DNA of 64,000 nt. Source: Octopus vulgaris (Eukaryota). The notes beneath the pieces were generated by a model, which saw nothing but the letters and a program-made list of their open reading frames with translations, did not search any database and was not told the origin of the DNA. Made by a program: the position numbers and the translations under genes. Location of the stretch: the NCBI GenBank assembly GCA_951406725.2, contig OX597822.1, positions 72,726,001-72,790,000 on the forward strand, written 5' to 3'. Positions 56,240 through 63,315 of this stretch are shown one piece after another; position 1 is the first letter of the stretch, and the number at the start of each line of letters is the position of its first letter.

Positions 56240-56282
56240 GTGTGTATATATATATAAGTTATATATATATGTATATATATAT

Positions 56283-57148
56283 AAGTTCAGTAAAAATTTA
56301 GATTCAGTTGAATATGGTACTTAAGTTAAAGACACCAGAATTTGGTATGGTATTATCCATATAATTCAAAATGGGGTGATTATAATCAAAATAAGCAACA
56401 AGGATATCCAAAGGTAATGCAGTACGGTCGTTTCACACGACTCTATTTAATTAAGCAATGCAAGTATTACATCAGTTTTAAAATGTAGAGTAATCTTCAG
56501 CTGCATATAAATATAAATTTAGTTAAATTGAAAAGATTCATTTTTATAGTTATTCCATTTACCAATATCATAAAAAGGGCAAGTAGGTAGACAGAGAAAC
56601 AAGTTTCATCAACAAAAATATGGTGTTAATTAATATTTTTTCATGGAGATACTGCTTATCATTGATTTTACTTTCCTATTTAGATTTACTACTGGGTGGG
56701 GGTTAAGACTATTCTATCAGGTCTAGTGGAGAGAAAAAAAAACAAGAACCTATCTTTTATAGATAGAGAAAGAGACAGTTTAAGTAACAGAGCCCTTTGA
56801 AGTAGAACCCATTTGGTTCAGTGGAATATATTTCAGCTAAAATTAGTAGGCCAAAGCTGATGGGGTAGGGAGAATAGAAACTTCTAATGCTTAACTATTT
56901 AACAGCCATAATCCTAATTGTGTTTTGAAATAAATAGGTATCTTTTAGATAGTTTTTTTTCAAATAATTCGAATAATTTTAGTATACAATATAGGGATGG
57001 AGAATATAGAAATAATTTCATATTTATATAAATATAAATCAAATTAATATAAATTTATAGTTAATTAGTAAATAGTAATTTATTGGTATTAATGAGTTAA
57101 ATTATGCTAAACATTTCATATATTTTCTACATGTTAATGACTTTAGAA
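56283..57148 (-). mobile_element. Non-coding HHR-bearing element between (TA)n tracts (Penelope pLTR/retrozyme-like)
   Basis: Bounded by (TA)n; 56285-56421 recurs at 63143-63278; contains an HHR at 56417-56506. Confidence 0.7.
56417..56506 (-). ncRNA. Type I hammerhead ribozyme with long stem II insert
   Basis: Minus strand: atgcag-CTGAAGA-ttactcta...tagagtcgtgt-GAAAC-gacc-GTA-ctgcat; perfect 6-bp stem I and full core; actcta/tagagt pair but the base of stem II is mismatched. Confidence 0.72.
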
Positions 57149-57205
57149 TTATATATATATATGTATATGTGTGTGTGTGTGTCTGCTTGTATATATGTAT
57201 GTATG

Positions 57206-57716: not shown

Positions 57717-57900
<184 letters not shown>

Positions 57901-58101
57901 CAACATCACAATCAAGGAACGGCCATAATAGGCCATTCACCCACTAGAAATAACGGCCAAAGCTTCAACCGCAAAATAACATTAATTCCGCAAACCAGGA
58001 GAAAATTAAAAAACATTTACCCTGTAATTTCTTATACGATGCACCGTTTCATCTACTGTTTAATGGTAAACTAACCTGAAAATATCTGTTCCGTTCTGGC
58101 T

Positions 58102-58208
58102 ATTTCTTACTGACGAATCTAAGGGCCTATGGAAGATTGGCTTGATTTAATTTAATCAGGTTAGTTTACCATTAAACAGTAGATGAAACGGTGCATCGTA
58201 TAAGAAAT
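58102..58208 (+). ncRNA. Intact type I hammerhead ribozyme, copy 1 (predicted cleavage after 58200)
   Basis: atttctta-CTGACGA-atcta[58 nt]tagat-GAAAC-ggtgcatc-GTA-taagaaat: 8-bp stem I, 5-bp stem II base, near-palindromic stem III, GUA triplet. Confidence 0.9.
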
Positions 58209-58589
58209 TACAGGGTAAATGTTTTTTAATTTTCTCCTGGTTTGCGGAATTAATGTTATTTTGCGGTTGAAGCTTTGGCTGTTATTTCTAGTGGGTGAAT
58301 GGCCTATTATGGCCGTTCCTTGATTGTGATGTTGAACTTATAAATGGTATATGACTATTTAATTTTTTCCCACTAGGCCGCTGGTGGCAAAAAAATTCTA
58401 CAAAATTTTTTTGCCACCCTATATTGATTAATTATGAATTTTCTGGTTGATTCCGTAATGGAATCGGCGGCTTATATTTATTTGCTGCCGATAAATTTGG
58501 CGCGAGTGCGATGATTTGAAAATTTTAGGTCAGATATTGCCGAGGCAGGGACAGAAATGCCTCGTGAAAATATCTGTTCCGTTCTGGCT

Positions 58590-58696
58590 ATTTCTTACTG
58601 ACGAATCTAAGGGCCTATGGAAGATTGGCTTGATTTAATTTAATCAGGTTAGTTTACCATTAAACAGTAGATGAAACGGTGCATCGTATAAGAAAT
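58590..58696 (+). ncRNA. Intact type I hammerhead ribozyme, copy 2 (predicted cleavage after 58688)
   Basis: Identical to copy 1, 488 nt downstream. Confidence 0.9.
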
Positions 58697-58917
58697 TACA
58701 GGGTAAATGTTTTTTAATTTTCTCCTGGTTTGCGGAATTTAATGTTATTTTGCGGTTGAAGCTTTGGCTGTTATTTCTAGTGGGTGAATGGCCTATTATG
58801 GCCGTTCCTTGATTGTGATGTTGAACTTATAAATGGTATATGACTATTTAATTTTTTCCCACTAGGCCGCTGGTGGCAAAAAAATTCTACAAAATTTTTT
58901 TTGCCACCCTATATTGA

Positions 58918-58992
<75 letters not shown>

Positions 58993-63107: not shown

Positions 63108-63142
63108 CACATATATACATGCATATAGTTAAGGTGTTATAT

Positions 63143-63315
63143 GTTCAGTAAAATTTAGATTCAGTTGAATATGGTACTTAATTTAAAGGCACCAGAATTT
63201 AGTATGGTATTATCCATATAATTCAAAATGGGTTGATTACAATCAAAATAAGCAACAAGGGTATCCAAAGGTAATGCATTACCGCTGGATATCCTTCTTG
63301 CTTATTTTGATTATA
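63143..63315 (-). mobile_element. Short copy of the 56283-57148 element ending in a fold-back
   Basis: gttcagtaaaatttagattcagttgaatatggtactt...aaggtaatgca matches 56285-56421, followed by a ~36-nt inverted copy. Confidence 0.8.

What the first reader, a model, noticed from the sequence alone, without database searches (positions are those of the whole stretch)
63143..63315. Truncated copy folds back right at the predicted ribozyme cleavage site
Seen: this copy matches 56285-56421 and stops at ...aaggtaatgca, about 1 nt from the HHR cleavage position of the longer copy (between 56423 and 56422). It then continues as an inverted copy (palindrome ggtaatgcattacc 63270-63283; 36-nt arms, 4 mismatches). 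Inference: the template RNA 5' end was generated by self-cleavage and the cDNA end self-primed a hairpin, which would be genomic evidence that the HHR was active in vivo.
Basis: partly seen in the sequence, partly recalled or inferred. Interest (0 to 1): 0.7.

Follow-up and report, generated by a model that had tools for sequence, protein, structure and literature searches.

The report
Penelope copies end at ribozyme cut
This is a small two-armed copy of a Penelope-type jumping gene, and across the genome such copies stop about five times more often than elsewhere at the predicted cut of their self-cutting RNA, which likely records occasional cutting in living cells, although the two arms were likely copied separately rather than by the DNA folding back on itself.

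Summary
Observation confirmed: 63143-63278 matches 56285-56421 (94%), stops 1 nt short of the predicted hammerhead cut, and continues as an inverted arm to 63315. This is the known Penelope-like "inverted arm plus tail" insertion. The family has thousands of copies and resembles the Hydra clade.

The proposed test was run. Breakpoints are not uniform: in 98 unbiased copies the top 4-nt window is the four bases ending at the cut (3.2%/nt, against 0.26%/nt just after). In a larger enriched set the last two bases before the cut hold 37 ends, against 46 in 12 later bases (4.8-fold). Most arms read through the site, so cutting is occasional at most.

The self-primed hairpin is not supported. In 23 of 46 two-armed copies the inverted arm holds sequence that the tail arm lacks, so both arms were copied from RNA. 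This junction fits two cDNA ends annealed at TGCA. Reverse-transcriptase stalling at the folded ribozyme is not excluded, and cleavage was not tested. The scan reported a similar result on other DNA of this genome (e1-9589631).

The parts
63143..63278 (-). Tail-bearing arm: 3' end of a Penelope-like element (RNA sense on the minus strand), 5'-truncated 1 nt short of the predicted hammerhead cut
   Evidence: 94% to 56285-56421; 132 of 335 family arms start at this outer site
63143..63237 (-). 'Tail': about 96 nt between the outer and inner fixed ends, present on one arm only
   Evidence: Arm starts are bimodal: 132 at or near the tail end, 150 at -44..-37, of 335
63275..63278 (.). Self-complementary TGCA shared by both arms; junction microhomology at -4..-1 from the cut
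   Evidence: overlap 4 nt
63275..63315 (+). Inverted inner arm, from -1 to the inner fixed start (-41), followed by TA-rich sequence
   Evidence: 41/45 to 56381-56425 in reverse; same end as other copies
56285..57149 (-). Longer 5'-truncated copy of the same family, without an inverted arm, between (TA)n tracts
   Evidence: other copies continue for more than 1.2 kb beyond its end
56417..56506 (-). Type I hammerhead motif: stem I 56501-56506 with 56417-56422, CUGAAGA 56500-56494, GAAA 56434-56431, predicted cut between 56423 and 56422. This copy is decayed in loop III and stem II.
   Evidence: loop-III self-duplex -5.2 kcal/mol here against -12.0 for the family consensus

Best explanation
The feature is a two-armed insertion of a Penelope-like retroelement whose arms were likely made as two separate cDNAs, each primed from one side of a cut (TA)n target, on an RNA whose 5' end was likely produced by hammerhead self-cleavage, and then likely joined by annealing at the self-complementary TGCA. 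Shown: the two fixed start sites (-137 and -41 from the cut), (TA)n flanks, arms that often each carry sequence the other lacks, and an excess of ends at and just before the cut. Inferred: one target strand primes at the outer site (138 nt to the cut) and the other at the inner site (42 nt); both run off the cleaved RNA end; the last base is trimmed; the two 3' ends pair through TGCA; repair completes the palindrome. Cleavage is occasional: about 3-9% of arms end at -1/0, and at most about a quarter if all ends within 13 nt before the cut are counted as trimmed. It is not needed to build the inverted structure.
For: Unbiased tail arms (n=98), ends per 100 nt at risk: 0.30 at -95..-14 (22 ends), 1.75 at -13..-4 (12), 3.24 at -3..0 (8), 0.26 at +1..+14 (2), 0.30 at +15..+60 (7). 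-3..0 is the top 4-nt window (p=2e-5, not corrected for scanning). Enriched sets: raw 41 ends at -1/0 against 48 at +4..+15; hand-curated 37 against 46, ratio 4.8, p=3e-11; position 0 alone 15, p=5e-5. Ends at exactly 0 have 0-1 nt of microhomology or short inserts, and subfamily B, which lacks TGCA, has a locus with both arms ending exactly at 0 (L074). The 8-bp palindrome just past the cut is the centre of 1 junction among 85 broken subfamily-C arms, against 9 loci at TGCA; positions -1 and 0 offer no more microhomology partners than later positions. When one arm ends at or before +3, its partner passes +10 in 5 of 78 loci; when it ends at +4 or later, in 21 of 33 (p=5e-10). Two cDNAs: inverted arm longer in 23, equal in 12, shorter in 11 of 46. 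PMC11167929 reports cleavage and extension of both target strands and two start sites that define the tail.
Against: 83 of 100 unbiased subfamily-C arms read past +32. The excess is a zone (-13..0), not one base: the palindrome at -20..-13 is an equally strong hot spot (9 ends in -12..-9). The -1 class is mostly TGCA-centred and so partly sequence-driven. Position 0 alone is not significant in the A/B set (5 ends, p=0.08). 6 of 46 inner arms end at +4..+11, just past the cut. The motif has U opposite U where stem II should close (104 and 114 of 116 copies), which departs from the conserved G10.1-C11.1 in PMC4209133 and may weaken cleavage. PMC11167929 found no RNA-seq ends at the cut of a Poseidon element and no need for cleavage in vitro. 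Earlier scan notes on other genomes found peaks at the ribozyme's front edge, not the cut. Several counts are hand-curated and some windows were chosen after seeing data.
Confidence: 0.58

Rival explanations
1. No cleavage: the reverse transcriptase stalls on the folded ribozyme (stem I, the three-way junction or the loop-III dimer duplex), and the stalled ends of the two cDNAs are joined at nearby microhomologies.
For: The excess spans -13..0 and includes a peak at -6, the base of stem I (24 raw ends). 6 of 46 inner arms end at +4..+11, within loop III. The U-U closure of stem II casts doubt on activity.
Against: Many ends fall exactly at 0 with a non-matching next base, and the rate drops from 3.2 to 0.26%/nt although the rest of the fold lies ahead. 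The long stem II hairpin shows no peak (0.30%/nt). A second hammerhead family has 0 of 100 listed arms ending at -1/0 and 0 of 22 mapped ends at -3..0, but 3 of 22 at -13..-4, so this control is weak.
Confidence: 0.2
2. One reading: one cDNA runs off the self-cleaved RNA end, folds back on itself and copies itself into a hairpin.
For: 12 of 46 two-armed copies are symmetric and 11 have the shorter inverted arm. Both arms are of the same subfamily in 36 of 36 pairs. Arm ends are coupled near the cut. Self-priming was proposed for Penelope palindromes in PMC3846280 (passages).
Against: 23 of 46 copies cannot arise by self-copying, 15 of them by 20 nt or more; this includes copies whose inner arm ends at the cut while the tail arm stops earlier (L214, L213). 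The inverted arm stops at a fixed site in (TA)n (141 of 150). The junction has no loop, and the 3' base is paired with probability 0.01. In the second family both orientations carry multi-unit arrays.
Confidence: 0.12
3. Longer palindromic insertions later collapsed by central deletion at self-complementary words, which produced this junction without any special RNA end.
For: Perfect junctions sit on palindromic words (TGCA and the 8-mer at -20..-13).
Against: Equal or longer palindromic words past the cut are rarely used. Ends at 0 also occur in copies with no adjacent inverted arm (L273) and with inserted bases (L340, L310, L126).
Confidence: 0.06
4. A transcription start or another RNA-processing site happens to coincide with the predicted cut and gives RNAs with this 5' end.
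For: Genomic ends cannot tell a cut from a start; Penelope terminal repeats contain promoters (PMC3846280 passages).
Against: It would need to coincide to the nucleotide with the GUA site, in subfamilies whose stem I sequences differ.
Confidence: 0.04

Closest known systems
Insertion units of endonuclease-bearing Penelope-like elements (PMC8557442, passages and section 11; PMC3846280, passages)
   Same: Terminal repeat with a hammerhead, 5' truncation, adjacent inverted truncated copy, a tail on one end only, (TA)n targets.
   Different: The tail is about 96 nt, not 30-40. No partial tandem was noted in the family-1 loci listed. The passages read do not map junctions to the ribozyme cut.
Hydra clade of C-terminal-endonuclease Penelope-like elements (PMC8557442 section 11)
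   Same: CxxC before the conserved E and CxH after the conserved N in the endonuclease end; relatives have a CxCX5C linker, no CCHH and a reverse-transcriptase YRDD motif upstream; (TA)n targeting; hammerhead present.
   Different: About 2 kb lies between the stop and the tail, long for elements described as under 3 kb. The family's own reverse transcriptase was not reached.
Poseidon element of Anolis, PAc (PMC11167929, parts 1-2 of 4 and passages)
   Same: Two internal start sites that define the tail; both target strands nicked and extended, which fits the two-armed insertions.
   Different: There, uncut RNA was the main substrate and no RNA-seq ends were found at the cut; here a minority of genomic ends pile up at it.
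R2 retrotransposon ribozyme and 5' junctions (PMC3774820, abstract only)
   Same: The ribozyme cut sets the RNA 5' end and is recorded in genomic 5' junctions joined by microhomology.
   Different: HDV-type ribozyme at the element's 5' end, and the cut defines full-length copies. Here the hammerhead lies near the 3' end and cutting gives 42-138-nt stubs.
L1 twin priming (recalled, not read here)
   Same: Both target strands prime cDNAs that are joined into an inversion.
   Different: As recalled, L1 arms cover different parts of the RNA; here both arms copy the same region from two fixed start sites.

Membership tests
EN+ Penelope-like element insertion | Inverted 5'-truncated copy next to the terminal repeat | tested here: met
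   This locus; 46 of 98 unbiased tail arms have an adjacent inverted arm after cleaning
EN+ Penelope-like element insertion | Tail on one end, bounded by two fixed start sites | tested here: met
   282 of 335 arms start at one of two sites; the tail is about 96 nt, longer than the 30-40 nt in the papers read
EN+ Penelope-like element insertion | Single ORF with reverse transcriptase and C-terminal GIY-YIG endonuclease | tested here: inconclusive
   Only the endonuclease end was reached (P0001). Pfam 0; word-indexed search of longer proteins 0; Atlas 0.93 to a GIY-YIG cluster; phmmer 1000 hits at E<=0.001, 16 at <=1e-10; 2 of 7 hits read show a YRDD motif upstream; 10 hits scanned had no Pfam match
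EN+ Penelope-like element insertion | Target-site duplication | not testable with these tools
   Both ends lie in (TA)n-rich sequence
Hydra clade | CxxC and CxH flanking the conserved E and N of the endonuclease | tested here: met
   Both in one frame in L464; CxxC in L465 and L462
Hydra clade | No CCHH motif; CxCX5C linker | tested here: inconclusive
   Seen in relatives such as P0003, P0066, P0055; not reached in the family itself
Hydra clade | RWK and DKT motifs; placement in the reverse-transcriptase tree | not tested
   No reverse-transcriptase sequence of the family was recovered
Hydra clade | Insertion into (TA)n | tested here: met
   141 of 150 inner starts and 113 of 132 tail ends have TA-repeat flanks
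Type I minimal hammerhead of Penelope-like elements (PMC4209133) | CUGANGA and GAAA boxes, UH site, stems I and II | tested here: met
   Stem I pairs change together between subfamilies A/C and B. Core conservation in the 116 copies is partly built into how they were selected. The alignment-wide consensus fold returned no pairs; the folds are of subfamily consensus sequences.
Type I minimal hammerhead of Penelope-like elements (PMC4209133) | Palindromic loop III allowing a dimer | tested here: met
   Self-duplex -12.0 kcal/mol in A/C and D, -7.8 in B
Type I minimal hammerhead of Penelope-like elements (PMC4209133) | G10.1-C11.1 pair closing stem II | tested here: not met
   U in 104 of 116 and U in 114 of 116 at those positions; it works like this motif but is a variant
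Type I minimal hammerhead of Penelope-like elements (PMC4209133) | Self-cleavage at the UH site | not testable with these tools
   Only the indirect breakpoint excess
Non-LTR retrozyme | Short non-coding units in head-to-tail tandem, each with a hammerhead | tested here: not met
   Family 1 extends beyond 2 kb into a coding remnant. The neighbouring family at 57900-58922 does meet it.

The most novel reading that the evidence does not exclude
The genome holds a nucleotide-resolution record that a Penelope hammerhead cut its RNA in the germ line. Both target strands copied the same cut RNA, the cut acted as a brake that turned up to a quarter of insertions into 42-138-nt stubs, and Penelope inverted repeats in general are two target-primed cDNAs joined end to end.
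Probability: 0.4. Interest if true: 0.68.

Novelty: new member of a known kind. Interest (0 to 1): 0.47.

Why it matters
The role of hammerheads in Penelope-like elements is open. [quoted passage not shown] A measured excess of genomic ends at the cut gives indirect in vivo evidence and an estimate of how often cut RNA is used. The arm comparison also separates two proposed origins of Penelope inverted repeats (self-priming against two primed cDNAs) and fits the in vitro result that both target strands are extended. My searches listed no paper that maps Penelope junctions to the hammerhead cut; the library lacks most subscription papers. The insertion itself is an ordinary example of a known structure.

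Tried and rejected
Rfam scan of the window: no hit.

I first took the shared end near 57150 in three copies for the element's 5' end; one search showed it was only the end of my query.

I considered that the arms of this copy come from two subfamilies (they differ at the A/C diagnostic base). Rejected as unproven: one substitution explains it, and 36 of 36 arm pairs elsewhere are of one subfamily.

Automatic end-calling had faults. over-extended TGCA junctions to +3; one search pulled ends with a nearby substitution back to -8..-4; mis-called partners. I therefore curated by hand and report raw and curated counts.

A peak at the ribozyme's front edge, reported by earlier scan notes for other genomes: only 0.59%/nt at +61..+100 against 0.30 before it (10 ends); not tested for significance.

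RNA evidence: no RNA holder listed, only assembled contigs that cannot show ends, so no reads were laid.

Pfam and the word-indexed protein search gave nothing.

Supplements were not opened; Fig. S2B of PMC11167929 and the Hydra hammerhead file of PMC8557442 may bear on the claims.

Full report
Observation. The stretch 63138-63282 aligns to 56280-56425 at 137/146, then continues as an inverted copy to 63315. The palindrome centre is 63276/63277, with 4 mismatches in 36 pairs. On the minus strand the longer copy has a type I hammerhead motif with a predicted cut between 56423 and 56422. I number positions from that cut: 0 is the last base a cDNA could copy from cut RNA, and positive numbers lie past it. 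Both arms of the finding end at -1 and share TGCA. Rfam has no gathering-level hit.

What the element is. The window lies in a 2.8-Gb genome. An 18-nt tail motif has 3284 exact matches and a near-cut motif of the main subfamily 2346. Of 335 arms examined, 150 start at -44..-37 (118 at -41) and 132 at the outer end; 141 and 113 of these have TA-repeat flanks. This is the inverted-copy-plus-tail layout described for endonuclease-bearing Penelope-like elements (PMC8557442, passages; PMC3846280, passages). PMC11167929 (parts 1-2 of 4) shows the tail is the interval between two reverse-transcription start sites and that both target strands are cut and extended. The longest copies run beyond 2 kb into a coding remnant with CxxC before a conserved E and CxH after a conserved N. 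Pfam and the word-indexed search found nothing. The Atlas gave a GIY-YIG cluster at 0.93 and phmmer 1000 hits; among 7 hits read, several show a CxCX5C linker without CCHH and two a YRDD motif upstream. These match the Hydra clade description (PMC8557442 section 11). The family's own reverse transcriptase was not reached, so the clade is likely, not shown.

The ribozyme. Stem I reads AUGCAG/CUGCAU in subfamily A/C and UGUGG/CUACA in B, so its pairs change together; D keeps only 3-4 pairs. Loop III is palindromic (self-duplex -12.0 kcal/mol in A/C and D), as described for dimer-acting minimal hammerheads (PMC4209133, parts 1-2 of 4). Against full membership, U faces U where that paper finds G10.1-C11.1. 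The window's long copy is itself decayed; the template would have been a source element's RNA.

Breakpoint test 1, unbiased. I took the first 100 of 3284 tail-motif matches, all on C1, and dropped 2 segmental duplicates. Ends were curated by hand; internal deletions were counted as read-through. Ends per 100 nt at risk: 0.23 at -95..-45 (11 ends), 0.44 at -44..-14 (11), 1.75 at -13..-4 (12), 3.24 at -3..0 (8), 0.26 at +1..+14 (2), 0.30 at +15..+60 (7), 0.59 at +61..+100 (10). The best 4-nt window is -3..0 (8 against 53 elsewhere, p=2e-5 uncorrected); the second is -12..-9 at an 8-bp palindrome. In the first 100 of 2346 subfamily-C arms, read by eye and partly overlapping this sample, 9 end at -1/0 (one ambiguous to +3), 1 at -6, 7 at +5..+25, and 83 read on.

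Breakpoint test 2, enriched. Patterns that reject read-through listed 138 A/B rows (arms with C at both filter positions were not listed) and 100 of 334 C rows. One search examined 135 A/B arms (2 identical duplicates merged, 1 read-through row left out; 31 read through) and 89 C arms (11 rows skipped by eye as read-through; 4 more read through). Raw upper-bound ends: 66 at -8..-2, 27 at -1, 14 at 0, 24 at +1..+3, 48 at +4..+15. After hand curation (symmetric pairs and segmental duplicates counted once, deletions and diverged read-throughs removed, ends with a nearby substitution re-placed): 56, 22, 15, 27, 46. The rate at -1/0 is 4.8 times that at +4..+15 (p=3e-11). Position 0 alone gives p=5e-5 overall and 7e-5 in C, but 0.08 in A/B. 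From these counts about 3-4% of C arms end at -1/0; one search gives 9%.

Is it only microhomology? The -1 class in C is mostly TGCA-centred, so sequence helps. But ends at 0 have 0-1 nt of overlap or short inserts; subfamily B lacks TGCA yet includes a locus with both arms ending at 0 (L074); and the 8-bp palindrome at +2..+9 centres 1 junction against 9 loci at TGCA. Positions -1 and 0 offer no more microhomology partners than later positions. Partner arms are coupled: if one arm ends at or before +3 its partner passes +10 in 5 of 78 loci, otherwise in 21 of 33. This fits two cDNAs bounded by the same cut RNA, but it also fits self-copying in that subset.

Self-priming or two cDNAs. One search found 53 partners among 100 tail arms (28 longer, 13 equal, 12 shorter). 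I dropped 7 (L239, L245, L255, L266 with long gaps; L253 and L253b, both tailed; L247, partner not starting at -41) and corrected L221 and L290. That leaves 23 longer, 12 equal and 11 shorter of 46, with 15 longer by 20 nt or more. An inverted arm that reaches beyond the tail arm cannot be copied from it, and the tail arm cannot be copied from an arm that lacks the tail, so both were made on RNA. For this copy a hairpin is also unlikely: there is no loop and the 3' base pairs with probability 0.01. Both arms share a subfamily in 36 of 36 pairs, which suggests one RNA or one source locus. For symmetric copies such as this one self-priming is not formally excluded.

Results against the cleavage reading. 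Most arms read through. The excess is a 14-nt zone with a raw peak at -6, the base of stem I, partly made of TA joins. Six of 46 inner arms end at +4..+11. The stem II closure is atypical. PMC11167929 found no RNA ends at the cut of its element. A second hammerhead family in the window has no end at -3..0 among 22 mapped ends but 3 at -13..-4, and its arrays may come from circular RNA, so it is a weak control. No RNA reads were available.

Comparison and novelty. The insertion is an ordinary member of a known kind. The use of junctions to read a ribozyme cut has precedent in R2 (PMC3774820, abstract). For Penelope elements my searches listed no such mapping; the retrozyme preprint 10.64898/2026.07.22.740005 (part 1 of 5 and passages) has no occurrence of 'breakpoint' or 'junction'. 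Earlier scan notes report a like excess in two of four families in this genome (e1-9589631) and front-edge peaks in other genomes. These are unchecked notes, not support.

Verdict. Real feature and real, moderate enrichment at the predicted cut. Cleavage in vivo is the likeliest cause (about 0.6) but is untested, and the fold-back is better explained by two target-primed cDNAs. Interest 0.47.

Noticed in passing
window 57900-58922: A second, unrelated hammerhead-bearing element: an inverted arm (57900 to about 58077) joined to a partial tandem of near-identical 488-nt units, with predicted cuts after 58200 and 58688, ending in (TA)n. 2854 motif matches genome-wide; multi-unit arrays often occur in both orientations around one inversion. 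Retrozyme-like and apparently moved in the Penelope manner.
   Followed up: partly
L463:2156-3963: A long family-1 arm ends about 60 nt before an inverted array of roughly 490-nt units; nested insertion or template switch, not resolved.
   Followed up: no
L415 (G000:C4:1651547): A copy lacks most of the ribozyme core, with the deletion starting at or next to the cut site in the same orientation; could be a short-homology deletion.
   Followed up: no
window 56370-56446, minus strand: In the family consensus an ATG lies in stem II, 24 nt before the cut, and opens a short frame through the inner start site, like the ORF start of the Anolis element; it is not kept in subfamily B.
   Followed up: no
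L253 (G000:C1:43958658-43958807) and L203: Insertions in which both arms carry most or all of the tail, showing that both target strands can start at the outer site.
   Followed up: no
L280-L282 and L424-L426: Near-identical copies tens of kb apart with the same junctions, probably segmental duplications; counted once.
   Followed up: partly
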